Shown here: piece after piece, positions 1 through 42,088 of the stretch
How the letters are laid out: every line of letters starts with the position of its first letter
How positions within the stretch are numbered: position 1 is the stretch's first letter
DNA from: Lophium mytilinum
Lineage: Eukaryota
Direction: 5' to 3'
Assembly (NCBI GenBank): GCA_010093605.1
Contig: MU004185.1
Span: 2,067,334-2,131,333 of the forward strand
DNA: 64,000 nucleotides
Notes under the pieces: model-generated
What the model saw: the letters and a program-made list of their open reading frames with translations, nothing else
The model's database searches: none
Told to the model about the DNA's origin: nothing
Translations under genes and position numbers: made by a program

Positions 1-94
1 TCGCGGCGAGGTCCAACGTCCTCTGCACGCTCGCCCACGACCTCTTCATTGCAACCCGAAGTCATCTCGTCCGCCACCTGAAGACTTCGCAATC

Positions 95-893
95 ATGGCT
101 GACGAATACGTATGTACCCTCGCGAGTGGTCTCTTGCCCGCACTGAAATGCTGACCCTGATTTCTTAGAACGCCGAGGAGGCTGCCGGTATGCCACCCCA
201 TTCCACTCCCTTCGCGAACAGACCTTTCCCACATGATGCGCGCACTCGAGGAGGAGATGAGGAGTGAAATGGAGAAACAATTGCACTGGAATATTGCTTG
301 GGTGGTGGCTGACTCGACTTTCCCACAGAGCTCAAGAAGAAGAGAGCGTTCCGCAAGTTCTCCTACCGCGGTGTGGACCTCGACCAGTACGTTCTGCCAA
401 CCCCAGGATCACTAGCATTGGAACTTGGCAACCAGAAAAATGGAGGGTGCTAACGGAAAACTGCCAGGCTGCTCGACCTCTCCTCCGAGGAGCTCCGCGA
501 TCTCGTCCATGCCCGCGCCCGTCGTCGATTCAACCGTGGTCTGAAGCGAAAGCCCATGGGTCTCATCAAGAAGCTACGAAAGGCCAAGCAAGAGGCCAAG
601 CCGAACGAGAAGCCCGACCTCGTCAAGACCCATCTCCGTGACATGATCGTCGTACCCGAGATGATTGGTAGCGTCATCGGTATCTACTCCGGCAAAGAGT
701 TCAACCAGGTCGAAATCAAGCCGGAGATGGTTGGACACTACCTAGGAGAGTTCTCGATTTCATAGTACGTATTTTCAAGCACTTTTGAGATGGATCTTTG
801 GAAGATATTCTAACAATTTACAGCAAGCCTGTCAAGCACGGAAGGCCGGGTATCGGTGCCACCCACTCTTCCCGTTTCATTCCTCTTAAGTAA
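95..893 (+). CDS. RPS15: 40S ribosomal protein S15 (uS19), 5 exons
   Basis: Spliced [58 protein letters not shown]...[27 protein letters not shown]...[33 protein letters not shown] introns at 110-168, 188-328, 387-467 and 765-823. Confidence 0.97.
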
Positions 894-3057: not shown

Positions 3058-4295
3058 ATGGTATGCGAGCCTAGCAGTCTCACAGTTTAAGACTTTGCTG
3101 ACCACTTATTTCTAGGCTCCAACAATCGGCGAGACTCACCAGAACACCTTCCCTCGATTCGATGATGGAGACGTGGAATTAAGACTCTCAAGATTGCCAT
3201 CACACGTCTACGTCTTACACAGCGTTGTGCTAGCTCTGCACTCCCCGTTCTTCAAGGCAAGCTTGAGTGAGCGGTGGGCGAATAATGGCGACACTGCCGT
3301 GATAGCGCCCGGTAGCAAGATTGCTTGGAAGTACCAGTTAAAGTTTAGCGATGACGACTCGGCCATTCTGACAAGAGACGTAAGTAACAGAATGCCCCTA
3401 TTAAGACCAACTACTTATTCTGTTTGGATTTTAGACTGGTTCCACCTCTGAAGAGACTAGGTCAGCACTGTGAAGTGGGGGACCAGTAAGCCTTTCTTCG
3501 GGAACACGCAAAGATTCCAATCATCGAAAGCAAGAGATCTTTACAGCCCATACGACTCTTTTGAGGCTTTTCTACAATCTTGGCCTGAGCCAACAGCCCA
3601 CGCCATGGGTAGATAAATCCGATCGAGATGCATTCGAAACGTTGGCGGAAACTGCAGATATGTATGGCTGCTCTAAAATTGCCATCACAGCAATGGATCA
3701 TTGTCTCCGCAAGGCCCTCCCGCAGGTGTTGCTCGCCTGCCAATTGGAACCAGGCTCGATGCTTCGTCTCGCACACAGTCTCCACTGCGAATGGATTTTC
3801 AAAGAAGCTGCCGCCCATCTTGTCGGGCTTGGAAATATTGCATACGAAAGACAGCGGATCAAGATGAATGAAAAAGGCCCTCTGACCAACCTTGAGACCA
3901 TGCTCACAACGAAGTATATTTCCTTTTGCACGAAATTGAAGGACATAGACTTCGATCTTCTCAAGGCGGCCCCAATGGAAGAAGACGATATCTGGGAGGT
4001 TCTCTTGACTTCGCACTTCCGGATGTGGTTCACTAGCGAGCTTGTGGAAGGGTATGGGTCTTCTCTCGACCGTAGTAAATACGCCAGCGTGTATCGGCAG
4101 ATCGAAGAGAACGACTGGTACAAGCATGGTAGATGGAACAACTTCGTGGAATCCTTGCCTGGGTTTACCGAATACCCTTATGATCTCGATCCTCTATTGT
4201 TCACACGCCGTCTCGCTGATATACTCAAATCAATCCTTATGGTCTACTCCACTCAATATCGAACTGAGCATAGTGGCATGGTTGTCCTTTGCTAG
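3058..4295 (+). CDS. BTB/POZ-domain protein, possibly a pseudogene (in-frame TGA at 3471-3473)
   Basis: ATG|intron 3061-3115|...FDDGDVELRLSRLPSHVYVLHSVVLALHSPFFKASLSERW (BTB signature); intron 3380-3434; helical part LAETADMYGC...LAHSLHCEWIFKEAAAHLVG is typical of fungal BTB proteins. The simplest splice gives a stop at 3471. Confidence 0.7.
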
Positions 4296-7200
4296 TTTGT
4301 ACGAGTGCCACTTGGTGTTTGGACCCGCCACGGGCACCCACTTATCGGGCTTGGTGAGAAGCCTGACGCCTCCGCCTCAAGCAAGATCGTGAACATTTCT
4401 ACTTTTGCAGGCACCGTGAAAGATATACTTTCCAGTCGAAAACTTGCATCCCGCTCCATAGTCTCGATAGAAGCGGAATCGACCACACCACCAAGATATT
4501 GATCGGCCTCTTTCAGCTTGAAGCGGAACGCATTCAGATGTTTCTTTAGCACCCCAAAGAAGTGCTTGAGATCTTCCGAGCCGTTAAGAAAGCGACAGCC
4601 AATGTGACCTATCGGTTGTGTAAGTGTTTCAGCTAGCAGTTCAAGACGGAGCAACATTTACCTGTGAACAACTGGCCATCTTCTGTGGTCTGTCGCGGCT
4701 GATCCGGCTCAAAGTAAAAAGACGTTGTTATAAGCCGCCGTACAATGGTTTTAATCAATATACCTGCGTCTGCTAGATACTCGTCTGCAATCTTCGCCAG
4801 CTCGCCACTTTCAAACGCAGCTAGGTCATCCAACTCTGGAAGCTCTGTTCCGCACTGCGGACTGAGTCGAAAGTAACGGCGCTCGTTCCCAAGCTCTCTT
4901 TCGTACTCTGAAAATCGATCTTTCCAGGCGTGTTCTGAATCAAGGTTCTGTAAAAGCGTCGCCTTCAAAACATTGAGTGTTTGTAAGCCACCGAGATTGA
5001 GAAACCAGCCGGAAACCCTGCTCCATTTCGACTGCACATGCCTGCTCCATTTTGACTGCACCTGTTCTGGTTGCCTGGGCTTGGAGCTTTCGTTCACGTA
5101 GCCGCTGCCAATAGAGAGCAGGATATCAGGATGCGGACCGCTAAGCTCAGGCCAGATCTTGAACACTTCTTGACGCGCTATCCAGGCTGGATTGTTATGA
5201 CATAGACCGCCATCCCAGTAAGTCGGTGAGCCATCCTTGGCAAAGCTCCGGAAGTACATGGGAGCTGCTGATGTTGCTCGTGCAACCTCCCAGGATTCGA
5301 GCTTGAGCGTTTCATCGTACTTCATTTCATAATCGTACAACAATTTCTGAGTGCTCGTGTCTGTGACTGTTTTCAGCCTTACTAATTCGAGGATTGAACA
5401 GATTCACTGACCTTCCGTCTCAATCGCGCGGATGTAGTTCGTGAAAATAGCGGGCTGATTTCCGTCACTCTTCGTAGAAGTGACGAACACCTTGCTTCGA
5501 AGGTCCAGGGAGGTGTCATGCTGAGGTACTTGCGTCAGGAAAACCAATTTTGTCAGGATGGGCAAGTGTGAACTCACCTGTAGGCCCATAATTCTGGATT
5601 CACCTAGAACTTCCTTGAGTTTATTCTCGAAAGGAACGTTTTGGTATCGGCATCCATGAAAGGTGTAGGCCCACGCATTACCCGACCAAGCACTACCATG
5701 CGTGGTGAAGGCGGATTTACAAAGCTCTGGATACAGTTGTTCGCAATGTGCCAAAGTCCAATCCTTTGTGCCAATGCCAAGTGCAATAATACCCCCTGTA
5801 CTCGTACCGCCGATCAGATCGAAGAATCTCTGTATCGGTATGTTGCCTCCAAGCTCCTTTTGAACGGCATTGAGTAACTTGAGTTCAATGAGCCCTCTGA
5901 CGCCTCCGCCGTCCAGAGTGAGTACGCGGGCGCCTGCGAAGGCAGGCTTTAGCTGTAGCTGCGGAGCAGGCTCGAAGAATTGAATCTCGCAGTGGAGCGG
6001 GCATTGCTGCAGAGCTACAACTCGTTTGTCGTTCTCGGAAGAGAATAATTGACAATGTACTAGAGCTTTCACACAACGCTCGCATATGGCATGTCCACAG
6101 GGAAGCGACTGCAGAGGCACTTCCCGAAAACAGAAGAAACATAAAAACAACTGATGCGCAGTCTTGTCAGCAAGGCTCGGAAGTCGATGGAATAACGCCC
6201 GCAAATGGCTGTAGTGAACGTCCCAGGTTGCATCGTTCCTTTGCTTCAAAGAGTGTACTAAATGTGAGTGTTGAGAACTCGGCCAATTCAAGGGAAGCAT
6301 CGCTCTCTCGATAGACCTGTCAACGGAGTCCATAGACTTGAGGAACGCATCTTCCCATTGGGTTTGTATGACGTTTACGAACTCAGACTCAAAGTCGCCC
6401 GCTCCGATCACCGCGCCAGACTCGTCTTGATGTTGATCATAGCCATGTCCCTGGCGAGATAGAAAACACCGGCGTCCTTGGAAACGGTCATTGGCAAATT
6501 CGCACCTGCTCCAGTCGCAAATCTGTGAGATGGCTTTCTTGACTTGCTTTGCATAAGTTTCACCTTCATGCGTGTCGCTGTGAGCGTCTACTCCTCCCTG
6601 GTACACTTCGGCTAATTTTCCAGGTACTCGCCTGTCAGATCGCGCTACATTAAGAGCAATGGCTGAAGATACAGGCGGTGTTGCAAGATCCAAGAATGCT
6701 TTGGCCGCCCCGGTATTTGCATCAGCCTCCATAGCCCCATAGATGGCTTGAAAAAGCCTGTAGAAGTTATTGGAAAGATTGTTCGGCATTGGATGTAGTT
6801 TTAGCATTTTAGCCAGGAAGTTGAAAGGTTTGTCCTCATTGTTCTTGATGTTTGCGACGTAGTGATCGAACGCAAGCTGGAAAAAGTATTCCTGGTCCTG
6901 CGATGGAAGGAGCATTCTGGCATCATGCTTTTTCTGCTGAGACTCTCGAGTTCGAATTTGGATTATGTCATAAAGTGTTCGGAGCTGTTTCGAGAGTTGA
7001 GACCGGATGTGCCCATTGGGAACGAATATGACATCAAGACTCGCGTAATGCTTGAGAAAGAGATCCTCCAAGTTTTTGATCTCCATCCCGCGTGCAATGA
7101 ATGATTCTCGGAGGCTCTTGATGTTTGGATCGACTTCGATTACGTTCTTGTAGTCCTCAAAGAACATTTTCCTTGCGGATTTCGGATCCCAAATTTCGCT

Positions 7201-8411
7201 TTGGTCTGCATTGTTGATGACGACAATCAACCGAGGCAGTGTAGCACGATTCAGTGCCGACGCAGCTGACTTGAATGCCCAGTCCAAAATATCTAATATG
7301 CTGTTTCCCAAGGTCTGTTGCTCCTTCACCACGAAAACAACCACATCCGAGAAATTGTATAGCAGCCTGGGGAATAGCTTTTTGATGAAGTCCTCACGTG
7401 TTGGTTCCTTTCCTTTGTTCGCATCAGGTGACAAACGACCCAAAGTCCGTGTTCGAGTCTGGCCAAACATAAGTCGGATGATTTCCTCCAATGCCGAGCG
7501 CACTCGTCCGTTGGATCTATTTGCAGCTTCTTTAACCTGTTGGCTTTTATAAGCAAACGACCCGGCAGGATTCGCGGCTCCGCCATCGAAGCCCTCACAG
7601 TCAGCGTAGAAGGTAGGTCGGTCGAGTTCGGGCAGTTCTCTCTCAGACAAATAATCTCCATAAAGGTGGACGTCTCCGGAGGCCGGTACCAGACTATTCC
7701 TTTTCCCCACCACAGGAACTTCCTTGGCCTTGACCCCGTGCTCCGTGTCAGTCAGCCACGGCTTTTCCAGCATCGTACGTATAAGCGTGCTTTTGCCAGC
7801 CCCTGTTTTGCCAACGAACGACACAAGGCGTGGGAAGCACGTGTCTACGTCAACCCTAGCTTGGTGCTCGGCTACGAGTCGACTGAAGCGTGGGAAATCA
7901 TCGAATCCGAATCCAGAGTTCTCAAAAGCGTCTGCTGTGATGGAAAACCACAAGGACTGCAGATCCTCCTCGTGCATGAGAGCACGCTTCACTTCATCCC
8001 AGTTCGGATGCAGAATATCTTCGAAGTGAACGCTAAACATGTCAGTGGGCGCCATGTATCTCGGGGAATACTTGCATACTGCTTTGAGTAAGGAACCTTC
8101 ATGTGATTAGCACTGTCTGGATTTTTCTTTTTGTGGCCGGGTCGCTTCTTCCAGCAGCGTTCACAGTAGCTCTGGGTACAAGCACCACAATACCACTCTC
8201 CAGGTTCTTTTCTGCAATCTTGGCAAATGTCATCTGGGGTGGAGTCGGAGTCGGAGTCGGACGATTCGGGAGAAGACTGCTCATGCGCCGTCGTTTTAGA
8301 CGTGGTGGTTTGCGAGTTCGATATGGCTATTCTGGGATTTCCATCCTGGGAACTCGATTGCTCTGCCCCAGCCATCCATGGGTTATCTTCAAGGGCTGTC
8401 GAATTTTCCAT
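4292..8411 (-). CDS. Multidomain B-box / P-loop GTPase (GBP/atlastin-like) / RING-like / patatin-like phospholipase, ~1,300 aa, 5 exons
   Basis: B-box CQDC-x8-CGAC-x4-CERC-x6-H; Walker A GKTGAGKS; YADCEG; RING-like CFFC...CGHAICERC...CPLH; patatin DGGGVRG, GTSTG, RATSAAPMYF, DGG. Introns at ~8033-8079, ~5522-5578, 5361-5411 and ~4610-4661. Confidence 0.85.
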
Positions 8412-9287: not shown

Positions 9288-12199
9288 TTACAACGCGGTC
9301 AATACCGCTTGCACGCCCACACTCCCCACATCCTCTCTCCGCATGACATACTGCCTCAACTCCATAGCCTCGTGTCCACCACCTCTCAACCTCTCCCTCA
9401 GCGCCTCGGGCCCAATGACGAACAAATTCGCGACTTCGACCAAAACATCCATCGCGCCGGGCTCCAGCTCTTCCCCAGTCGGCCACCCTCTGACTAAATC
9501 AACATAGCCATTCATATCTTTGCTAACGACCAGCCCACCCGCAAGCGAGACGCTAAACTTGCGCAGATGCTCCAGCACCGCCGACCGCAAGCCCTTCGCG
9601 AGCTCGGCAAGGAAGAGCGCGAGATTACGCCCGTCGAGCGAGGCAGTGGCTTGAGTGGCAACGCGGCTGAGGAACGTCGTGACAGTCTTGCAGGCCGGCG
9701 TTTCGGTGGACAGGGAGGTGAGGGCGTCGTCGTCGTCCTTGGGGCGGAAGTCTGTCTTTTTCTGCTGCGCGAGGCAGCGAGTCACCCACGCTAGCGCAGC
9801 GTCGAGGGTGCGATTGATAATGGTCGAGATCTTGGCTTCGAGGGTAGCGAGGCTGTTCGTAGTTGCTTTTTCGATTTCGCGGCGGATGGTGAGGTTGGGG
9901 GTTGCGAGGGGGAGGAGGACGGTCTGGGTTGAGGTTTGGAGGAGATGGAGGATAGAGATTGCGGTGCGGAGGGAGGAGAGGTAGGTTAGGTCAGGAGGAG
10001 TTTTGGTCATGGATTCCTGGGCGGCTGCATGGTCGGCGGCACTAGAAATTGGTCAGTATAGTAGCTAGAAGCAGAGCAGTTAGGACTTACGCGTCTAGAG
10101 CTGTTTCGAGATAGAGCTCGCCCATGTGTGACAAAAGAAGTGTAAGTAGAGCTTGAACGTCTTTTGGTGTTTCGTTGCCGCCACTGAGTTCAAGCCCTCT
10201 CCCTACACCTTCCGCTAACCACTTTAGCATTCTCTTAGCATTAGGTAGGCTAAGTTTGCCATCCTCATCTGTGACTTCGATATCCTTTTTCTCGCTGTCG
10301 GTGTCTTTGAGGCCAGCAATACGCATCAACATAGCTTTTTGAGAGGGTGGAAGTTCGGTTGAGTCCAAGCGGTCCATGTAGGCATCCCTTGCCGAAGAAA
10401 TGAGCTCTCGCCCTCTTTGTCCAAGTGATCCGAAATATGTTGTGGGCATTTTCCGTTTTCTGGACTTCGGTCGAGTTAGTGTTTGGTTTCATCAATCGTA
10501 ATATGTAGCTTACATGATAGATGGTAAACTTGAGGAGGAGGGATGAGTACAGCTCTTCCAAGTTTTTCTTTTCTCGTTCAATGTATGATGAGCCCACGAA
10601 GTACGGTACGAAAAGGTCATCAAGTTGCTGGTCTAGCGTGGCCGCAACTTGCGATGACACGGGCTCAGGGTGCTCCGTTAATCCATGTGATTTCAGGTCG
10701 TCGACGAGAGCGGCGATGTAACTTCTCGCGGCCTGCAACGAACGAAGAAATGCTAAAGAAGACAATTGATTTGCTTTATCAAGTACCATTTCGAGGCGTT
10801 GTTGTATCTTTTGCAGTGTTAGCAACGTTCAAGGGTTGGGCAGAGCTCACAGACTTACCGATTGTTGAAAAACTCTCTGCAAGAATCGTACTAGCACTTC
10901 GTCGTAATATGGAAATGCACGCTTGATTATAGCAGATTCTTCCTGCACGACAATTCTCACCTCGTCTACTAAGGACTGAAGGCTCGGCTCTACTCCAGGA
11001 GGTTCCGCATCAGGATCTTGGAGCCGATCCCAGCTATCAGTTGTTGTTAGTCCATATACTCAATTTCTTCGGAGTTACGGTAGCACATACGTCTCGTTGT
11101 CGCCAGCTACTTCTTCAGTGATCAGCTGACTACGATCAATGAAAAACTGATGCTGATTGACGAATAAAGCCATGACACTCGCTCCATCGCTGAAATCACG
11201 CAGAGCCACGGCGCATTCCTAGTCCATAATTGTCAGCATAATTTTGCTCGAATTCGAGGATGCATCTTACCCTCATGCCATCAAAGTTCTGCCGCCTGTA
11301 GAATTCGTCGAACTGCTTCAACAAATCTTTTTCTAAGCTCTCCAAGAACTTCTCGATGATCTCACGTGTTGGGTACCTGCTTTGGCCAGCTCCGGGCCTC
11401 TTCTTAGGTCCTTTCGCGCCATTTCCGTTCAAATGAGGTGTGCCTTCTGGGTCCAGCCTAGTACTGATCTTTAAGAGTTGTCGTGCAATATGGGCGCAGC
11501 GTACTTTGCCATCCCCACCACCTAGTCTCCTGACGTCTTCCAGAGTCGAAAGGTTTCCCTTTTCGCTCACTTCCATCCAGCACTGTATCAGGAACTTGGC
11601 ATCCTGTGCTCTTTGTCTTTGCCGGTCCAGCTCCTCGAGTCGTTCACCAATCCGTACCGCGACATTTCCCCCAGCGTCCTGGTCAGCTCCGTCGCTTATA
11701 CTGCCATTCAGCGAACTATCCAGCCGCTGAAAGTTGTCTATGGCCTGCTCGAGTTTCCTCCCTAGCGAGTCTACATTTTGGTTGTGCTGGGCTTCGGCGC
11801 GACGCACGGCGCCAGAGAGCTCGTTCTCATGGGATTCAAGTTCTTCAGAGAGGGAGCCGAGGCGGGAGAGAGCGTGTTCGAAGGTTCGTATGAGAGGCTT
11901 GGGGTCGAAAGCAGCTATGAACTGTTAGAAGGGATGATCGACAAATGGCGTAAGAGTCGCACCCTGCTGATTTCCAGGGCCAGAGCCTCGCCTGGCAGGT
12001 ATTGCGCTATCGGAGAGTGCTTCTATGAAGTCTTTGACTATGTAGTCTTTGCTCTATTCATGTATAAGCAATTGATTGCGCGGTACGGTGAAAGGTGACT
12101 GACAGTAAAGGTGTCCAGCGAAAACACAGGCCCTCTGACGGAGCCAGATCTCGTCGTCGTAGAATATATCGAGGCATTGTCTGCCGCGGTTGCGGGCAT
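9288..12199 (-). CDS. SEC10: Exocyst complex component Sec10 (EXOC5), multi-exon
   Basis: MPATAADNAS...FSLDTFT/NKDYIVKDFIEAL...FDPKPLIRTFEHAL...IGERLEELDRQRQRAQDAKFLIQCW...QQKKTDFRPKDDD...LDGRNLALFLAELAKGLRSAVLEHLRKFSVSLAGGLVVSKDMNGY. Confidence 0.9.
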
Positions 12200-14980: not shown

Positions 14981-17832
14981 GGACGAGTCTAATTATCACC
15001 CCCCTTTTTACTACGTATTACCCCCCTTTTCACTCTATATCACCCCCCCTACTTTTAACTAGCTCCGGGCCCGTATTTACATTATTCTACTAATTAAACT
15101 TACTTGTTTAACTTTATAGAAGGCTGCGTAAAATAGTAAGTATGCATTATAAAATAGAAAGGCTGCAGTATACTAGCTATTAGAAGTCTATTTACTCTAT
15201 CTATTAAAGCTAGTCTAGAAGCGGAAGGCGCCTAGATAGCTACTATCTAATTACTAGCTAAAAGGAATACTAACTAGGCCTATATACTATAGCCTTACGC
15301 CTAAATATTCTCTAGTTTCTTTACTACGGGCAGCTTCTTTCTCTAGTGTAGATATAGGGGCATTCTTAGGGCCTAGTTAGCTATTAGGGACTAAGGAAAT
15401 TAAGCCCTAAGTAGCTATTAGAGTGCCTGCCTATTTAGTAGAGTAATTTAGCGCTGTATTTATAAACTATATAGAATTATTTAATACCTAGATAGTCCGC
15501 TTAACCCCCGGTGTACCCGTAGAGACGCCTATTATAGTAATTTAGCTACCCTGTATCCTAATCTATATTAATTAAGTTAATTTCTATCTACTTATAATAC
15601 TTACTACTTATTCTATATAAGTAGTAGCCTTTTAAGCTTACTAAAGATACAACGTTTCCCTATATAATTCTAGCTCTCTACTATATTATCGCGCGCGCTA
15701 AGCTATACTTACTAGGTCCTATTAAGTGTTGTATTTAAATTAAGATAGATTACGCCGAGTTATATTTACAGGCGTATAAATATAGCTATAGCTACAGCCA
15801 CGCGTAGTTTAATAAAGTATAGTAGAGCCTATTAGCCGCCCTTTACGGTGTAGTATAATAGCCGGAGCCTTAATAAGAAGGAGAGAATCTATAGATAGGT
15901 CTACCTTATTTAGAATAGGCTGCTTAAACTACTAGTACTAATAAATATTCTCTAGAATAACTATATATATAGAGGTTATAGTAGTATATAGTTTTTAGTA
16001 TATTTTATAATAGTATAGCATGCTATATATCCCCCTAAATATTCTATTATATACCGGGTTAAAATTATTAGCTTTTACCTTCTTAATCTAGCTAGTAAGT
16101 AGCCTTAGGCCCTGCTTAGTAACCTTCTAAAGAACCTTATTAAACTTAAGAATCTAAACAACGTGCTATAGAGCTCTATGCTAGCGGCTAAGCTTATTCT
16201 TTAGCTCTATACTCTAGCGGTAAATATATTAAGAGAGAAGGGTGATAATATTATAGAGGTCGCTAGTTAAGATCTAAAGATAGGACTTAATGCTGCCGTT
16301 TAAGCCCTCTAGACGTAAGGTTGTAGTATTTCTAAAGTATAGTAGAAGAGTAGTATAGTACTTAGTAATCTACTATTAAAAAGGCTACTACTCTTTAGTA
16401 AGGTAATTAACTAGGTCTTATTTATATATATAGTCTTCTTCTATCTTCTTCTAGGCAGCTTTAAACGCGAGCCTTATAGGTTTTATAAGGTAGAAATTAA
16501 ACTTATTAATAAACTTCTTTCTATCTCTCTAAATAGCTTCTACCTTAGCTACTATTAAATCTTAAGAGGCACGTGCTAGAGCCTATATATTAATAGCGTT
16601 AGTTGCTTTCTACTTATCTACCTTCTAAACGGCTATAGCCTTGCTAGCGATATTCTTTTGCATGTACTATTTACACAGAATTTAAGAAATAGTAGAAAAG
16701 AACTTAGCTAGCGTATTCTTAAGTATAAGCTCTTTATCTATAATAAAAACGCCTAGTAAAACTCCTAGGCGCTAGCATATTAGGTAAAGCTATTATACTA
16801 TAAAGATATAGTCCTCCTCTTCTTCTTCTAGAAGAAAATAATAGCTAAGCTTATAGTTCTTGCCCTAATTATTAACGCTATTAATATAGAGGAGCGGCAT
16901 CTTAAAGCGATTAGTTTTGTAGATATAATTAAGAAGAATAATATCTAGATAGTATTAAAATATCTTAATACTCTAAGAATATATAAAGTATAAGTACTTA
17001 ACCCGGTTTACTTTATCTAGCTTATATTTATAGTAGTAATAAGCGTCCGGATTATTACTACTATATTCCTTAAGCACCTTAAGTATAGCCTAAGTTAGAG
17101 TAAGGCCCTAGAGCTTTATTTTCTTCTACTATACGCGCTTATTATAGAGGTTCTTTATAGTTACATCTTTACCCTTAGCTAAAAGGTTATTAAAGATAGC
17201 TCCTATAGGCGTGCCTCCGTTAAGCTAGTTATAGATAGTTTAGACAGTTTCCTTATTAAGATCTTAATGCGCAGCTAGAGTTCTATTCTTAGTATTGTAC
17301 GCCTTATAATTATAAGCTAAAACCTTAACCTTAAAGAGCTAATTACCTTATAGTAGGTCTCTTATAAAGGCCCCTTTTATAAGGTAATTAAACTTCTTTA
17401 AATAGGTTAGGCGCTTTCTATTAGCTAGCTTATATTCTCCTGCGCATTTGCATTAAACTATTACCTTGCGCACCTAGGGGGGCATGCGCTTATCTATTTT
17501 TTTATTATATTTAATAATTATATAGCCTTTCTACTTTACCTATATATTAATAGACTTTATACCTTCCTCTATAGAGGTGTAGAGGCCCTAGGGGGGCAGC
17601 TATAGGGGTATAGTAATAAAGTAATAAAGTAGAGGAAGTAGTATTAATATATTAAGAGAGAGAATATATAGGTAATTAAATTTAAATTAAGTATAAGAGG
17701 GCTAAGCAAGTAAGTTTAATTAGTGGAATAATATAAATACAGGCCCGGAGCTAGTTAAAAGTAGGGGGGGTAATATAGAGTGAAAAGGGGGGTGATACGT
17801 AGTAAAAAGGGGGGTGATAATTAGACTCGTCC
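14981..17832 (-). mobile_element. Full-length Mutator (MULE) DNA transposon, RIP-inactivated; ~130-bp TIRs, 8-bp TSD TTACAAAT
   Basis: TIRs GGACGAGTCTAATTATCACCCCCC... at 14981-15112 and 17701-17832; TTACAAAT at 14973-14980 and 17833-17840. The minus strand encodes decayed IILLNYIYKTNRFKMPLL, LCK*YMQKN and TTLRLEGLNGSIK MULE transposase motifs. Very AT/TpA-rich with many stops. Confidence 0.93.
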
Positions 17833-18027
17833 TTACAAATTGCTGATCAAGAACATATCAGCTAGCCTGTGATTGGTGCGCCGACCGCGGGGCGCTTTCC
17901 GCATTATCAAATGTTCATGATTCCTTATACAGCGCCTTATAATGCATCTTCTCTGCCCTCCCTACGTTCTTCTCGCACCTTCTCGCCACACTCTCCTCCT
18001 CGACTATAAAAGCCGCCACCCCGATCC

Positions 18028-40005: not shown

Positions 40006-42088
40006 ATGGAAACCTCGCAGCCCCTTATTTCTTACAGTTACGATCTTCCTCCTCCAAAGGCAACATGCAGATACTGCAGCCTCCTAGAACCCATCGAAAG
40101 AGAATCAGAACTCTGTGATTTTGGGCATGAGTGGTTTCGTTTCGACCACCACTTTTCGCTTTCGGCCTTTCAACAATCCTGCCTCACATGTCCGGTCTGC
40201 AAATTACGACTTAATCAATTCGTGTCTCATAATGGCGAAGGAGCTGCCCATGATCTTAGTGATCATACATCCGATGACCAACAGCTCTCTCGCCAGGTTT
40301 CTGGCAAGCGAACAGGTTACCGGCTGCTTGACAATATTTTCGGCTTCACCTGTCCAAGCCCTATCTATGTCAGCTTTGACTTGGTTCAATATTTGAGGCC
40401 AAGTTTCGTTTTCTCGCCAATTGCAGGTTAGTAAAGTGCCTTTGTTTACATATAAGGGCTTGGTGAACGATAGCAAAACGCTTTATATTACTAGCAATTG
40501 ACGAATAGCATAACACTAATAGCGATACATCAGACACTGTGAGTCAAAGACTCATCTGGAAGAACTGCAGGGCATTTTCGACCGCTGAAAGCCTCGGCGT
40601 TGTCTCTCAATGGCTTGACGAGTGCGAGTCTGCTCACGAGCTATGTAGGCCTAATTCATTTTGTGTGCCCACGAGACTTATTGACGTAGGACCCAGCAAT
40701 GGGTCCACCGAACCTCGATTGCTAGAGCCGAACAAGCCCTGCTCTATGGAGAGCTTCAATTATACAGCTCTCAGTCATTGCTGGGGCCGTGCAGGTCAGC
40801 CATCTAGAACCACGCTTTCGACGTTTTCGGGGCATCTAGACTGCATACCCATGAGCAGTCTCACGAAGACATACCAAGACGCTGTCTCTATAACTCGGGG
40901 TCTCAAGATACGTTTTCTCTGGATCGATAGCTTGTAAGTGAACAGCGTCAAATTAGTAGAGTTCACTACTCAATGCTCCACAGGTGCATAATCCAAGACG
41001 ATGAAAAGGACTGGCAACATGAGTCATCCCTCATGGAATCGATATATGCCAACTCCTTCCTAACAATCGCTGCTACCGCTTCTGCAGATGGTTCCGGGGG
41101 GTGTTTTCAGACCGTCCGGCCGTCCATTCCGGTGGAAGTCAAAAGCTCAATCTTTGGGCAAGATGACTCAAACCGCCAAACCCATCAGGTATATCTGAGG
41201 CCCCAAACAACTCATGAAGACCTAATATCAAAATCGCCTCTCTTTCGGAGGGCTTGGACTCTTCAAGAAACAGTGCTCTCTAGGCGGACGGTGCACTTCA
41301 CACATAATCAGTTGTACTGGCAATGCAGAACTCTTTCCGCCTCCGAAGATGGAAGTATCTATAGGGGTAGCGAGCACACTCTTCCTGTATCGACATTTGG
41401 AGCGGCCCCAGGGGAGATTTGGAAGAACTGGGTTGAGGATTACAGCAACCGTGAATTATCGAACCGAGCTGATAAACTTGCTGCTCTGGCCGGCCTCACC
41501 AAATTATACGCGAAGGAAACTGGGGAAATACCCCTGGTAGGGATTTGGGAGAGCCAATTGCATGTATGGCTCTCATGGTATCGTTCAGAACATGGAGACC
41601 AGACCAGATCATTTGAAAGGATTGCTGGCATTCCTTCTTGGTCCTGGGCATCACTAGATGGGCCAGTCTCAATATTCGAGACACCGGCCTTATCTCGTGA
41701 AGTCTCTGACTTTGAGCTTATCTCCACATCTCTACAATGGTCTGGGGAGCCCCTGACATCAACGCTAGTAGACGCTAGACTCGTTCTTCGCGCGAAACTT
41801 CTCCAGGCTGAGATTGAAGGGACCGGCATACTGTATTTGCAAGGTACAGGTGACAACTATCTTGGATGGATTGTCTACCTTGACTCTCCTAGCTGTCAGG
41901 TTCCCAGGAAGATCTCGTGTCTCTTGCTCAGTACAAGAGGGGGCCCGGCAACGTTTCTGCTTGTGTTGTCCGTTGAGCCAGACTGCAACGTATTCCGCCG
42001 CGTCGGCTTAGCAATTCTTCACCCTGTCGATGAATTCATCTCAATCGAGCTGCAAAATGCGACGATGGAGGTAGTTACACTCATTTGA
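40006..42088 (+). CDS. HET (heterokaryon incompatibility) domain protein
   Basis: WLDECESAHELC, PTRLIDVG, YTALSHCWG, KTYQDAVSITRGLKIRFLWIDSL/CIIQDDEKDW..ESSLMESIYANSFLTIAA, PLFRRAWTLQETVLSRR, PSWSWAS. Introns at ~40428-40533 and ~40934-40984. Confidence 0.92.

What the first reader, a model, noticed from the sequence alone, without database searches (positions are those of the whole stretch)
4292..8411. B-box + GBP-like GTPase + RING + patatin fusion: candidate non-NLR fungal immune/cell-death protein
Seen: one ~1,300-aa spliced ORF carries a B-box-type finger, a P-loop (GKTGAGKS ... ADCEG, resembling the DTEG G3 motif of GBP/atlastin GTPases), a second C/H cluster (CEF..RRC..GH..QH), a RING-like finger ending CPLH, and an intact patatin catalytic set (GGGxRG, GTSTG, DGG). 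Known: patatin is the killing domain of the fungal NLRs Neurospora PLP-1 and Podospora PaPlp1; GBPs and RING/B-box TRIM proteins are animal innate-immune proteins. Inference: this is a GTP-switched, ubiquitin-linked phospholipase effector that uses a large GTPase in place of NACHT/NB-ARC. Homologues probably exist under generic patatin annotations, but I know of no functional description.
Basis: partly seen in the sequence, partly recalled or inferred. Interest (0 to 1): 0.75.

Follow-up and report, generated by a model that had tools for sequence, protein, structure and literature searches.

The report
GBP-like GTPase RING patatin fusion protein
A wood-dwelling mould makes one long protein that joins a GTP-driven switch of the type animals use in cell-autonomous immunity to a ubiquitin-ligase-type zinc finger and a membrane-cutting lipase of the type bacteria use for suicide defence; the protein family is large in filamentous fungi and appears never to have been studied.

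Summary
On the minus strand, 8411..4292, lies one five-exon gene. A public, probably RNA-derived contig removes exactly the four predicted introns, giving a 1,303-aa protein. The deposited Lophium mytilinum model (1,207 aa) misses the last intron and a conserved C-terminal domain.

Architecture, in order:
- a B-box-type finger;
- a large G domain plus helical middle domain. Its AlphaFold model (pLDDT 88) matches GBP1/2/5, atlastins, Sey1p, SMG9 and RNF112 at Z 15-22; every other GTPase scores 12.9 or less, and no STAND protein appears;
- an invariant CCHH zinc site;
- a RING-type C3HC3H finger (ligand pattern conserved, fold evidence weak);
- a catalytically intact patatin domain closest to bacterial CBASS CapV lipases;
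- a DUF8392-like tail.

Pfam recognises only the patatin. The family is large (2,138 clusters), multi-paralogous, and every named member is from Pezizomycotina. At least 18 of 115 long members lost the lipase serine while keeping the P-loop.

The immune or cell-death reading is plausible but untested. This copy has Ala at the near-invariant switch-I Thr. The family lacks the GBP arginine finger and RD motif, and no sensor repeats were found. Ten literature searches found no description. Verdict: new variant of a known kind, moderately high interest.

The parts
4292..8411 (-). Whole gene, ATG to stop: five exons, 1,303 aa
   Evidence: spliced CDS 3,912 nt, no internal stop. (one contig of run X1 joins all five exons). 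Identical to the deposited protein P0005 for its first 1,199 of 1,207 aa.
8033..8079 (-). Intron 1 (47 nt, GTATGC..TTTAG)
   Evidence: Skipped in the X1 contig (skips 47).
5521..5577 (-). Intron 2 (57 nt, in frame, inside the patatin domain)
   Evidence: (skips 57).
5361..5411 (-). Intron 3 (51 nt)
   Evidence: (skips 51).
4609..4661 (-). Intron 4 (53 nt, GTAAAT..GATAG). The deposited annotation reads through it and ends early.
   Evidence: (skips 53, cut +2). The homologue P0008 continues with the exon-5 sequence.
8097..8234 (-). B-box-type zinc finger (aa 60-105; C-x2-C-x8-C-x2-C-x4-C-x2-C...H)
   Evidence: On exon 1 alone: Pfam zf-B_box 25.1 (cut-off 24.1), ANCHR-like_BBOX 27.3 (27.0), CEBP_ZZ 30.3 (29.8). 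All three are below cut-off on the full protein. Ligand columns are kept where the N-terminus is present.
6832..7971 (-). GB1/RHD3-type (GBP/atlastin-like) large G domain, aa 132-511
   Evidence: AlphaFold model m40d07540ddc2, pLDDT 88.1. Foldseek top matches are atlastin-1, GBP1 and RNF112. VIA-align Z 20-22. A wide search of 48,161 chains gives a top 10 entirely from this clade. Language-model features give GBP, RHD3 and SMG9 clusters.
7789..7812 (-). G1 / P-loop GKTGAGKS (aa 185-192)
   Evidence: G185, G190, K191 and S192 are invariant in 34 of 34 relatives.
7681..7683 (-). Ala228 at the switch-I (G2) position, where relatives have Thr
   Evidence: Thr in 33 of 34. Thr in 184 of 193 stored relatives; Ala in 4, including the Mytilinidion orthologue P0198.
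7591..7602 (-). G3 DCEG (aa 255-258)
   Evidence: D, E and G are invariant in 34 of 34.
7204..7215 (-). G4-like N-N-A-D (aa 384-387) after the strand LIVVI
   Evidence: N384 in 34 of 34. Position 387 is D in 17, E in 7 and P in 6 of 34.
6517..6831 (-). Helical middle domain (aa 512-616)
   Evidence: Helices in the model. The alignments to GBP1 and atlastin run on through it (1f5n, model 22..560 onto chain 8..528).
6430..6504 (-).
   Evidence: Present in 33, 34, 34 and 34 of 34 relatives. pLDDT above 90 in the model.
5992..6141 (-). RING-type finger, C3HC3H (aa 742-791, ends CPLH)
   Evidence: The first seven ligands are present in 33-34 of 34 and the last (His) in 25 of 34. Pfam RING families are sub-threshold (zf-RING_UBOX E 0.014). 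Foldseek ranks 1-23 are RING domains, but E is 0.47 or more. FANCL RING gives Z 4.0 and RNF213 RING Z 2.8.
5176..5922 (-). Patatin phospholipase domain (aa 815-1027; spans introns 2 and 3)
   Evidence: Pfam Patatin 79.7 bits. PADLOC phospholipase effector PDLC00758 133.3 bits over aa 812-1101. NCBIfam CBASS_lipase 117 bits against a cut-off of 200. The best PDB sequence match is CapV.
5800..5802 (-). Codon of the nucleophile Ser855 (GTSTG)
   Evidence: Ser in 20 of 34 relatives, Gly in 11, Asp in 2, Asn in 1.
4295..4608 (-). Exon 5: conserved C-terminal domain (aa 1200-1303), probably DUF8392 (PF28431)
   Evidence: jackhmmer with P0004 finds it in 94 of 253 stored relatives, C-terminal of the patatin in the rows printed, with one extra stretch in P0225. 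The hits include the PF28431 carriers. The name DUF8392 comes (a lead only, score 0.82). Not in the local Pfam copy (no hit).

Best explanation
SHOWN. The locus is one expressed five-exon gene of Lophium mytilinum. It encodes a soluble 1,303-aa protein with this order of domains: B-box-type finger, GBP/atlastin-class large G domain with its helical middle domain, an invariant CCHH zinc site, a helical linker, a RING-type finger, a catalytically intact CapV-like patatin phospholipase, and a DUF8392-like C-terminal domain. It belongs to a large, old, multi-paralogous family whose named members are all filamentous ascomycetes.

INFERRED MECHANISM. As in GBPs, atlastins and RNF112, nucleotide binding makes the G domains pair or polymerise and moves the helical domain. 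In this fusion that movement would release or assemble the patatin domain, which is otherwise held inactive. CapV, iPLA2-beta, VipD and ExoU likewise need a ligand, dimerisation, a GTPase or ubiquitin to become active. The released lipase would cut membrane phospholipids at a chosen membrane. The RING would add ubiquitin, either to the protein itself (turnover or activation) or to the target.

The most likely biological role is a regulated membrane-attack or cell-death effector in defence or non-self reactions. It would be built on a dynamin-superfamily switch instead of a STAND NTPase.
For: Gene structure and expression:
- Searches give the gene model.
- one contig joins all exons at GT..AG borders.

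G-domain class:
- Model pLDDT 88.1.
- Foldseek top hits are atlastin-1, GBP1, RNF112 and GBP5, at E 2e-6 to 1e-5.
- VIA Z is 20-22 for GBP1, GBP5 and ATL1, 20.2 for RNF112, 19.8 for Sey1p and 19.4 for SMG9. The next class (HflXr) scores 12.9.
- The search of 48,161 chains that does not rely on Foldseek gives the same top 10 and no STAND or ABC protein among the 50 shown.
- Language-model features independently give GBP, RHD3 and SMG9 clusters at 0.91-0.94.

Lipase:
- Catalytic motifs are intact.
- The domain scores far higher against the CBASS phospholipase effector models (133 and 128 bits) and against NCBIfam CBASS_lipase (117 bits) than against generic Pfam Patatin (79.7 bits).
- CapV is the best PDB sequence match.

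Family behaviour fits an accessory or conflict gene rather than a core enzyme:
- 2,138 clusters at E<=1e-3.
- Two deep clades with fungal classes intermixed, and two or more copies in some species.
- The nucleophile Ser is replaced in 18 of 115 long members, while G1 is kept in 107 and G3 in 111.

Precedents:
- PLP-1 kills through its patatin domain (review passages).
- VipD needs Rab5, ExoU needs ubiquitin and PNPLA9 needs dimerisation (abstract).
- RNF112 is a RING plus atlastin-like GTPase with E3 activity (passages).

No TM helix is predicted: the maximum Kyte-Doolittle 19-residue mean is 1.31. The protein is therefore soluble, like GBPs as I recall them.
Against: - No functional datum exists for any member.
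- In this copy the near-invariant switch-I Thr is Ala. The adjacent Ser229 may or may not substitute. GTP hydrolysis or gamma-phosphate sensing could therefore be impaired here.
- The family has Gly (30 of 34) or Asn (4 of 34) at the P-loop position where I place the arginine finger; the finger itself is documented for RNF112. G4 is N-x-x-D/E rather than RD. The catalytic mechanism and even the base specificity may differ from GBPs.
- Pfam GBP and RHD3 models do not match any of 34 members.
- RING fold evidence is weak and E3 activity is assumed.
- There is no repeat-type sensor domain, and the neighbours are housekeeping genes such as Sec10 and AMP deaminase.
- Only one copy was seen for L. 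mytilinum among the named hits.
- G-domain self-association could not be tested.
Confidence: 0.5

Rival explanations
1. A housekeeping-type membrane or lipid remodelling enzyme. The atlastin/Sey1/RNF112-like GTPase tethers or shapes an organelle membrane (ER, lipid droplet, endosome, peroxisome). The patatin domain remodels its lipids locally. The RING handles turnover. There is no role in defence or death.
For: Half of the best structural relatives (atlastins, Sey1p, RNF112) are membrane remodellers. Patatin enzymes such as PNPLA2 and PNPLA9 are metabolic (abstract). The gene sits among housekeeping genes and appears in a spliced public contig without any known challenge. No sensor repeats were found.
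Against: No TM segment or lipid anchor motif is present, unlike atlastin, Sey1p and RNF112 (the TM helix of RNF112 is in passages, those of atlastin and Sey1p are recalled). The patatin is closest to CBASS suicide lipases. The family is multi-paralogous with intermixed classes. At least 18 of 115 members lost the nucleophile, which is odd for a core enzyme. No named member comes from yeasts or basidiomycetes.
Confidence: 0.25
2. In this particular copy the G domain is a degenerate, hydrolysis-dead nucleotide-binding scaffold (pseudo-GTPase). Control of the lipase comes from ubiquitin or the RING, or from a partner protein, not from a GTP cycle.
For: Thr228 is Ala in Lophium and in its Mytilinidion orthologue, against Thr in 184 of 193 relatives. 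There is no P-loop arginine finger. Human and mouse RNF112, which lack the finger and canonical G2/G3 residues, have weak GTPase activity (passages). ExoU shows that ubiquitin alone can activate a patatin enzyme (abstract).
Against: G1, G3 and the G4 Asn are fully kept in this copy. Ser229 follows the Ala and could take over Mg/gamma-phosphate contact. 83% identity with the Mytilinidion orthologue over 47% of the query suggests constraint. My assignment of residue 228 as G2 rests on its position before strand 2 of the model and on a recalled motif, not on a bound nucleotide.
Confidence: 0.15
3. Artefact: two or more separate genes (zinc-finger/GTPase gene and lipase gene) wrongly read as one.
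For: Many database relatives are short (635-850 aa) and lack either the patatin or the N-terminus.
Against: One open frame of 900 codons runs from the G domain through the RING into the patatin. One contig joins all five exons in frame. All 34 long relatives aligned carry the Pfam patatin hit. G1, G3 and the first three RING ligands are invariant in those 34. The short relatives come mostly from short metagenome contigs.
Confidence: 0.02

Closest known systems
RNF112 (ZNF179/neurolastin), vertebrate RING + atlastin-like GTPase
   Same: It is the only characterised protein I found that joins a RING finger to a GBP/atlastin-class G domain and helical middle domain. The structural match is Z 20.2, rmsd 3.8 over 271 residues. 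The mammalian forms also lack the arginine finger (passages).
   Different: RNF112 has its RING at the N-terminus, a TM helix and no lipase. It is brain-specific and remodels membranes. Here the RING lies after the middle domain, there is a B-box in front and a patatin plus DUF8392 behind, and no TM helix.
Guanylate-binding proteins (GBP1/2/5) of animals
   Same: Best or tied-best fold match. GBP1 1f5n gives Z 21.9 over 347 residues, running through the helical domain; GBP5 7e5a gives Z 22.0. Both are soluble, and GBPs have an immune role. The switch-I T-x-G and D-x-E-G motifs are of the same style (motifs recalled).
   Different: About 10% identity. The Pfam GBP model does not match. No arginine finger and no RD G4. 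No CaaX box (the CaaX box of GBPs is in a passage). The protein carries its own enzymatic effector and zinc fingers.
Atlastins / Sey1p (RHD3) ER-fusion GTPases; SMG9
   Same: Same G-domain class: Z 19.3-21.9 for atlastins and Sey1p, 16.6-19.4 for SMG9. RHD3 and SMG9 clusters are nearest by language-model features.
   Different: Those are membrane-anchored fusogens or a kinase-complex subunit (from entry titles, and recall). None carries a lipase, RING or B-box.
CapV, the cGAMP-activated patatin phospholipase of bacterial CBASS
   Same: The patatin domain scores best against CBASS lipase models: PADLOC 133.3 bits, NCBIfam 117 bits. CapV is also the best PDB sequence match, E 3.3e-7 on the N-terminal half. 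Both are lipases that must be kept off until triggered.
   Different: The score is below the NCBIfam equivalog cut-off (117 vs 200), so this is not a CapV orthologue. CapV is a stand-alone protein of about 330-360 aa switched by a cyclic dinucleotide. Here the domain is embedded in a 1,303-aa eukaryotic protein.
PLP-1 / PaPlp1, fungal patatin-NB-ARC-TPR NLRs
   Same: A fungal protein in which a patatin domain is coupled to a P-loop NTPase. PLP-1 cell death needs both the patatin activity and the nucleotide-binding motif (review passages).
   Different: PLP-1 has an N-terminal patatin, a STAND NTPase and TPR sensor repeats. Here the NTPase is a dynamin-superfamily G domain placed before the patatin, with zinc fingers and no repeats.
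Bacterial dynamin-like GTPase + RdcB-like + patatin operons
   Same: The same theme, a dynamin-superfamily GTPase wired to a patatin lipase, proposed as a GTP-switched defence lipase (AI notes, unchecked). There are weak PADLOC hits of this protein to LeoA (E 1.8e-6) and LeoBC (E 3.7e-4).
   Different: Those are separate genes in an operon, with a classical dynamin-like rather than GBP-class GTPase. Homology was not tested here. My scan of prokaryote genomes with the G-domain profile found no relative.

Membership tests
GB1/RHD3-type (GBP/atlastin/Sey1/SMG9/RNF112) large G domain of the dynamin superfamily | Fold of the enlarged G domain, clearly closer to this clade than to other GTPases | tested here: met
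   Z 20-22 over 255-349 aligned residues. The wide search of 48,161 chains gives ranks 1-10 all from this clade (Z 15.1-20.5), with the next at 12.9. Foldseek E 2e-6. Atlas features 0.91-0.94.
GB1/RHD3-type (GBP/atlastin/Sey1/SMG9/RNF112) large G domain of the dynamin superfamily | G1 GxxxxGK[ST] and G3 DxxG | tested here: met
   GKTGAGKS at 185 and DCEG at 255. The core residues are invariant in 34 of 34.
GB1/RHD3-type (GBP/atlastin/Sey1/SMG9/RNF112) large G domain of the dynamin superfamily | Switch-I (G2) threonine | tested here: not met
   Ala228 in this copy. Thr in 184 of 193 relatives. Met by the family, not by this protein. The position is assigned from the model and a recalled motif.
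GB1/RHD3-type (GBP/atlastin/Sey1/SMG9/RNF112) large G domain of the dynamin superfamily | Arginine finger inside the P-loop (GBP1 and atlastin recalled; Xenopus RNF112 R195) | tested here: not met
   The fourth P-loop residue is Gly here, and Gly in 30 and Asn in 4 of 34 relatives. That this residue corresponds to the finger is my alignment of the P-loops.
GB1/RHD3-type (GBP/atlastin/Sey1/SMG9/RNF112) large G domain of the dynamin superfamily | G4 of the RD type (recalled for GBP and atlastin) | tested here: not met
   N-N-A-D here. N is invariant; the fourth position is D in 17, E in 7 and P in 6 of 34. This is closer to the classical NKxD.
GB1/RHD3-type (GBP/atlastin/Sey1/SMG9/RNF112) large G domain of the dynamin superfamily | Helical middle domain directly after the G domain | tested here: met
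   Helices at model residues 343-506. The GBP1 alignment runs from model 22..560 onto chain 8..528.
GB1/RHD3-type (GBP/atlastin/Sey1/SMG9/RNF112) large G domain of the dynamin superfamily | Match to the curated sequence models (Pfam GBP PF02263 or RHD3_GTPase PF05879) | tested here: not met
   Neither appears for the window protein at E<=1 nor for any of 34 relatives at E<=0.01. A profile search of PDB sequences gave only P-loop-level hits.
GB1/RHD3-type (GBP/atlastin/Sey1/SMG9/RNF112) large G domain of the dynamin superfamily | Nucleotide-dependent dimerisation through the G domains; GTP hydrolysis | not testable with these tools
   This needs biochemistry.
Patatin-like phospholipase (PF01734) | Curated model above cut-off, with oxyanion GGGxRG, nucleophile GxSxG and Asp of the dyad (DGG) | tested here: met
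   79.7 bits vs 27.7. DGGGVRG at 818, GTSTG at 853, WDGG at 1014.
CBASS CapV lipase (NCBIfam NF041079, equivalog) | Score above the equivalog cut-off | tested here: not met
   117 bits vs a cut-off of 200. It is the nearest named lipase type, not a member.
RING finger (E3 ubiquitin ligase type) | Eight zinc ligands in cross-brace spacing C-x2-C-x9-39-C-x1-3-H-x2-3-C-x2-C-x4-48-C-x2-C/H (consensus recalled) | tested here: met
   C742, C745, C756, H758, C761, C764, C788 and H791. The first seven are present in 33-34 of 34 and the last is His in 25 of 34.
RING finger (E3 ubiquitin ligase type) | Curated sequence model above cut-off | tested here: not met
   The best is zf-RING_UBOX at 15.8 bits vs 25.2. 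RING families match 1 to 3 of 34 relatives each at E<=0.01.
RING finger (E3 ubiquitin ligase type) | RING fold | tested here: inconclusive
   Model pLDDT 85.6. Foldseek ranks 1-23 are RING domains but E is 0.47 or more. FANCL RING gives Z 4.0, rmsd 2.2, 58 aa. RNF213 RING gives Z 2.8.
B-box zinc finger | Curated model above cut-off and C/H ligand pattern | tested here: inconclusive
   On exon 1 alone three B-box/ZZ models pass narrowly. On the full protein all are below cut-off. Only 3 of 34 relatives match zf-B_box at E<=0.01. The ligand pattern is present.
TRIM (RING, B-box, coiled-coil) proteins | N-terminal RING followed by B-box(es) and a coiled coil, in that order (recalled) | tested here: not met
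   The B-box is at aa 60-105 and the RING at 742-791, with the G domain between them.
NLR / STAND NTPases (NACHT, NB-ARC) | STAND-type P-loop domain, with repeat sensor | tested here: not met
   No NACHT or NB-ARC hit. Only one of 34 relatives touches a STAND model, at E 0.0069. No STAND chain appears among the 50 best of 48,161. No repeats were found.
DUF8392 (PF28431) | Match to the Pfam model | not testable with these tools
   The model is not in the local Pfam copy. [quoted passage not shown] The name comes.

The most novel reading that the evidence does not exclude
Filamentous ascomycetes possess a whole, so far unnoticed branch of cell-autonomous immunity. It would be built on GBP-class large GTPases fused directly to a CBASS-type suicide lipase and a ubiquitin ligase. 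On sensing a foreign or damaged membrane, or a pathogen-made change in nucleotide or ubiquitin state, the proteins would polymerise through their G domains like animal GBPs. They would then digest that membrane or kill the hyphal compartment. The serine-less paralogues would act as regulators or decoys. This would place GBP-style defence in fungi, and would link the eukaryotic GBP and bacterial CapV effector logics within one polypeptide.
Probability: 0.3. Interest if true: 0.85.

Novelty: new variant of a known kind. Interest (0 to 1): 0.62.

Why it matters
Fungal immunity and regulated cell death are at present described almost wholly through NLRs, HET/TIR, gasdermin and amyloid signalling. 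The two recent reviews I searched do not contain the words GTPase, guanylate, dynamin, TRIM or B-box at all.

A family of more than two thousand sequence clusters would be a new class of candidate effectors. It couples a GBP-class switch, a RING and a CapV-like lipase in one chain, and it comes with clear, cheap tests: point mutants of K191, S855 and the RING.

The family also extends the known range of the GBP/atlastin G-domain class, since Pfam does not recognise this domain. It offers a natural single-chain system for asking how a dynamin-superfamily GTPase can gate an enzyme.

On the practical side, the deposited gene model is about 100 residues short and loses a conserved domain.

Tried and rejected
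- **Sequence searches for the G domain.** Pfam gave only sub-threshold P-loop hits such as AAA_24, MMR_HSR1 and ABC_tran. A profile search of PDB sequences gave only P-loop-level hits: Cdc10 septin and MsbA at E 0.003. Only structure comparison and language-model features placed the domain.
- **STAND, ABC and septin readings of the P-loop.** Rejected on the fold searches.
- **Own genome.** Not held, so paralogues in L. mytilinum could not be counted directly. tblastn found no second copy in the window.
- **Prokaryote relatives of the G domain.** A scan of genome contigs with profile A1 matched 19 pattern stretches, and none was confirmed. This scan has low sensitivity.
- **C-terminal region search** (P0008 880-1086). 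It found only itself. Pfam found nothing for exon 5 or the post-patatin stretch.
- **Expression.** No RNA holder is listed for the stretch. The one holder, X1, is labelled 'RNA?' as a guess. I use only its spliced contig.
- **RING fold.** Three structure searches gave only weak matches.
- **G-domain homodimer prediction** with GTP and Mg. Nothing was folded.
- **Earlier notes of this scan.** There was nothing near this place or similar to this sequence, and nothing for all seven words.
- **Literature.** Ten full-text searches found no paper describing a fungal B-box/GTPase/RING/patatin protein or a fungal GBP-like family. Subscription journals are not covered. Supplements were not opened.
- **Variant members.** Those with a roughly 600-aa N-terminal extension and no patatin (P0165 and others) gave no Pfam domain and no organism names.

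Full report
**The gene**

The minus strand between 8411 and 4292 carries a 900-codon open frame flanked by three shorter in-frame pieces. Reading the sequence gives five exons: 8411-8080, 8032-5578, 5520-5412, 5360-4662 and 4608-4295. They are separated by GT..AG introns of 47, 57, 51 and 53 nt. Joined inside a script, they give 3,912 nt, or 1,303 codons plus the stop, with no internal stop.

The organism is Lophium mytilinum (Dothideomycetes, Mytilinidiales). The deposited protein (P0005, 1,207 aa, 'hypothetical protein', UniRef 'FabD/lysophospholipase-like') is identical for its first 1,199 residues. It then reads into intron 4 and stops.

Two results show that intron 4 and exon 5 are real. 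The Ophiobolus homologue P0008 continues with the exon-5 sequence. One 9,573-nt contig of the public run X1 lies on the stretch with 0 differences and skips exactly 47, 57, 51 and 53 nt at my four introns, with CT..AC ends on the + strand.

The run is labelled RNA only as a guess. The contig also runs on into both neighbouring genes, so it says nothing about transcript ends or level.

**Domains that sequence models see**

- The Pfam Patatin model matches at 79.7 bits against a cut-off of 27.7.
- The catalytic set is intact: DGGGVRG at 818, GTSTG at 853 with Ser855, and WDGG at 1014.
- On exon 1 alone, three B-box/ZZ models pass their cut-offs narrowly. On the whole protein they fall below them. 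The B-box call is reasonable but borderline.
- The P-loop region draws only sub-threshold hits to many unrelated P-loop families. The RING region draws only sub-threshold RING hits.

**The P-loop domain is a GBP/atlastin-class large G domain**

I aligned 65 relatives to residues 112-671 and obtained an AlphaFold model with mean pLDDT 88.1.

- Foldseek against the PDB puts atlastin-1, GBP1, RNF112 and GBP5 first, at E 2e-6 to 1e-5.
- VIA-align on these gives Z 22.0 for GBP5 and 21.9 for atlastin-1. GBP1 gives 21.9, with 347 residues aligned through the helical domain. RNF112 gives 20.2, Sey1p 19.8 and SMG9 19.4.
- The best protein outside this clade, HflXr, reaches 12.9.
- A search of 48,161 representative chains that does not depend on Foldseek gives the same picture. 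Ranks 1-10 are all GBP, atlastin, Sey1p, SMG9 or RNF112 (Z 15.1-20.5). A step down follows, to ordinary TRAFAC GTPases at 12.9 and below. No STAND, ABC or classical dynamin chain is among the 50 shown.
- Independently of structure, protein-language-model features place the 400-aa G domain nearest to clusters carrying Pfam GBP, RHD3_GTPase and Smg8_Smg9, with scores 0.91-0.94.

DCEG' is thus borne out, and its refutation condition (a STAND or other non-GBP fold) is not met.

**How the G domain departs from the textbook GBP**

- G1 and G3 are invariant in 34 full-length relatives.
- The fourth P-loop residue is Gly (30 of 34) or Asn (4 of 34). By my alignment this is where GBP1 and atlastin (recalled) and Xenopus RNF112 carry the catalytic arginine finger.
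- G4 is N-x-x-D/E, not RD. N is present in 34 of 34; the fourth position is D in 17, E in 7 and P in 6.
- In the motif P-T-S-G-D-V-H-L-Y just before strand 2, which I take to be switch I, Thr is present in 184 of 193 stored relatives. The window's protein and its Mytilinidion resinicola orthologue have Ala instead. That orthologue is P0198, 83% identical over 47% of the query.

This particular copy may therefore hydrolyse GTP poorly or sense the gamma-phosphate differently. The RNF112 study reports weak activity for the mammalian forms that lack the finger and canonical G2/G3 residues (passages).

**Zinc sites**

It is present in 33, 34, 34 and 34 of 34 relatives and modelled at pLDDT above 90.

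The RING-like segment has eight ligands in cross-brace spacing: C742, C745, C756, H758, C761, C764, C788 and H791. The first seven are kept in 33-34 of 34 and the last is His in 25 of 34.

A separate model of residues 652-816 (pLDDT 85.6) gave mostly weak structural support.
- Foldseek ranks 1-23 are RING domains (TRIM2, IDOL, XIAP, TRIM32, Bre1, cIAP2, c-Cbl, TRAF6), but none has E below 0.47.
- The wide search is swamped by single helices and shows the FANCL RING at Z 4.0.
- The second look gives the RNF213 RING at Z 2.8.

I accept a RING-type finger on the ligand pattern. E3 activity is assumed, not shown.

**The lipase and the tail**

The patatin domain scores much higher against CBASS phospholipase effector models than against generic Pfam Patatin.
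- PADLOC PDLC00758 gives 133.3 bits over residues 812-1101, and PDLC00757 gives 128.
- NCBIfam CBASS_lipase gives 117 bits, below its equivalog cut-off of 200.
- CapV is the best PDB sequence match.

The domain is therefore CapV-like but not a CapV orthologue.

Exon 5 encodes a domain that an iterated search finds in 94 of the 253 stored relatives. In the rows printed it lies after the patatin, apart from one extra stretch in P0225. The hits include the proteins whose precomputed annotation lists PF28431. The Atlas names PF28431 as DUF8392 (a lead only). Its function is unknown.

No TM helix is predicted: the maximum 19-residue hydropathy is 1.31.

**The family**

- A profile of the N-terminal 560 residues finds 2,138 cluster representatives at E<=1e-3 and 535 at E<=1e-30 among 1.84 billion proteins.
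- Of the 77 hits, 45 carry an organism name. To my knowledge all are Pezizomycotina, from Orbiliomycetes and Pezizomycetes to Dothideo-, Sordario-, Leotio- and Eurotiomycetes. I looked up only the lineage of Lophium. The further named hits agree.
- In 34 full-length relatives Pfam recognises the patatin in 34, any RING model in 1 to 3 each, zf-B_box in 3, and GBP or RHD3 in none.
- A quick FastTree of 65 of the 66 rows of alignment A2 was built. One row under 70% occupancy was dropped, the tree was rooted at the midpoint and supports were not inspected. It shows two deep clades, each mixing fungal classes. The window's protein groups with Ophiobolus, Talaromyces, Fusarium and Echria. Other Dothideomycetes (Glonium, Lepidopterella, Rhizodiscina) sit in three places in the other clade, and Fusarium oxysporum appears twice.
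- Among 115 stored relatives of 1,000 aa or more, G1 is found in 107, G3 in 111 and the RING pattern in 91. The nucleophile Ser is found in 62, is replaced by Gly, Asn or Arg in 18, and the motif was not located by my pattern in 35.
- Pairwise identity is about 0.41-0.43 in the G domain, CCHH, RING and patatin, and about 0.23-0.24 in the linkers and the post-patatin part.

This is the behaviour of an old, diversifying accessory family in which the GTPase is the constant core. It is not that of a single-copy metabolic lipase.

**Surroundings**

The neighbours are ordinary. An exocyst Sec10 gene lies upstream (9288-11924, minus strand). A weakly BTB-like gene is convergent at the 3' end. Pirin and AMP deaminase lie further on, and a HET-domain gene is 32 kb away. 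There is no second copy in the window.

**Mechanism**

Shown: the architecture, the fold class, the intact lipase site and the spliced messenger.

Inferred: nucleotide-driven pairing or polymerisation of the G domains moves the helical domain and switches on the patatin domain. The RING adds ubiquitin to self or target.

Known patatin enzymes are commonly held off until a co-factor arrives. VipD needs Rab5, ExoU needs ubiquitin and PNPLA9 needs dimerisation (abstract). CapV is cGAMP-activated (entry names). PLP-1-triggered cell death needs both the patatin activity and the NB-ARC nucleotide-binding motif (review passages). A protein that carries both a GTPase and a ubiquitin-ligase-type finger next to such a lipase fits that logic.

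Earlier notes of this scan describe bacterial operons pairing a dynamin-like GTPase with a patatin lipase as candidate defence modules (unchecked). I take this as an analogy only.

I put the defence or cell-death effector reading at about 0.5. A membrane or lipid housekeeping role is at about 0.25. A nucleotide-insensitive scaffold in this particular copy is at about 0.15.

**Novelty**

Each domain type is known, and RNF112 already joins a RING to an atlastin-like GTPase. The fusion of a GBP-class GTPase with a CapV-like lipase, a RING, a B-box and DUF8392 was not found described in ten full-text searches. Nor was the existence of this large fungal G-domain clade that Pfam does not recognise.

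The following papers do not mention it in the passages that my term searches returned:
- two recent reviews of fungal immunity and cell death;
- a GBP evolution review;
- the 2020 survey of NTP-dependent conflict systems.

Subscription literature and supplements were not covered. I rate it a new variant of a known kind.

Noticed in passing
window 4609-4661 and 4295-4608: The public gene model of this locus (P0005, 1,207 aa) reads through the last intron and stops early. It loses about 104 residues of a conserved C-terminal domain. The spliced contig and the homologues support the longer 1,303-aa product.
   Followed up: yes
window 7681-7683: Ala228 replaces a Thr that 184 of 193 family members keep in the switch-I-like motif. 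The Mytilinidion resinicola orthologue shares the change, so it arose in the Mytilinidiales lineage.
   Followed up: partly
relatives P0025, P0026, P0039-P0041, P0059, P0074, P0082 and others: At least 18 of 115 long family members have Gly, Asn or Arg in place of the patatin nucleophile Ser (for example GTGTG, GGSGTG). Most of the 115 keep the GTPase motifs (G1 in 107, G3 in 111). These are likely lipase-dead paralogues.
   Followed up: partly
relatives P0165, P0167, P0172, P0175, P0179, P0181, P0190 (metagenome proteins): A variant architecture: roughly 230-600 unexplained N-terminal residues, then only the first 354 positions of the profile (G domain). There is no patatin and no Pfam domain apart from an MMR_HSR1 hit in P0179.
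   Followed up: partly
window 15001-18000: An AT-rich block (GC 0.31-0.37) with a strong RIP signature. TpA/ApT is 1.67-2.0 and the composite RIP index is 1.1-1.7, against -0.36 for the whole window. It contains no ORF of 220 aa or more. This is probably a RIP-degraded repeat.
   Followed up: partly
window 40931-42088 (+): An ORF with a HET (heterokaryon incompatibility) domain, Pfam PF06985, E 1.1e-15.
   Followed up: no
window 9288-10052 and 11196-11924 (-): An exocyst Sec10 gene lies directly upstream of the finding on the same strand. The X1 contig runs about 3.2 kb beyond 8700 on that side.
   Followed up: no
window 3116-4295 (+): A convergent neighbour whose first exon looks BTB/POZ-like, but only at E 0.024 and below the Pfam cut-off. 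Its 3' end abuts the stop codon of the finding.
   Followed up: no
P0079 and P0081 (Fusarium xylarioides): Distant family members (E 9e-17 and 1.5e-4) that add C-terminal ankyrin repeats after the patatin. This is the only repeat-type, sensor-like addition seen in the family.
   Followed up: no
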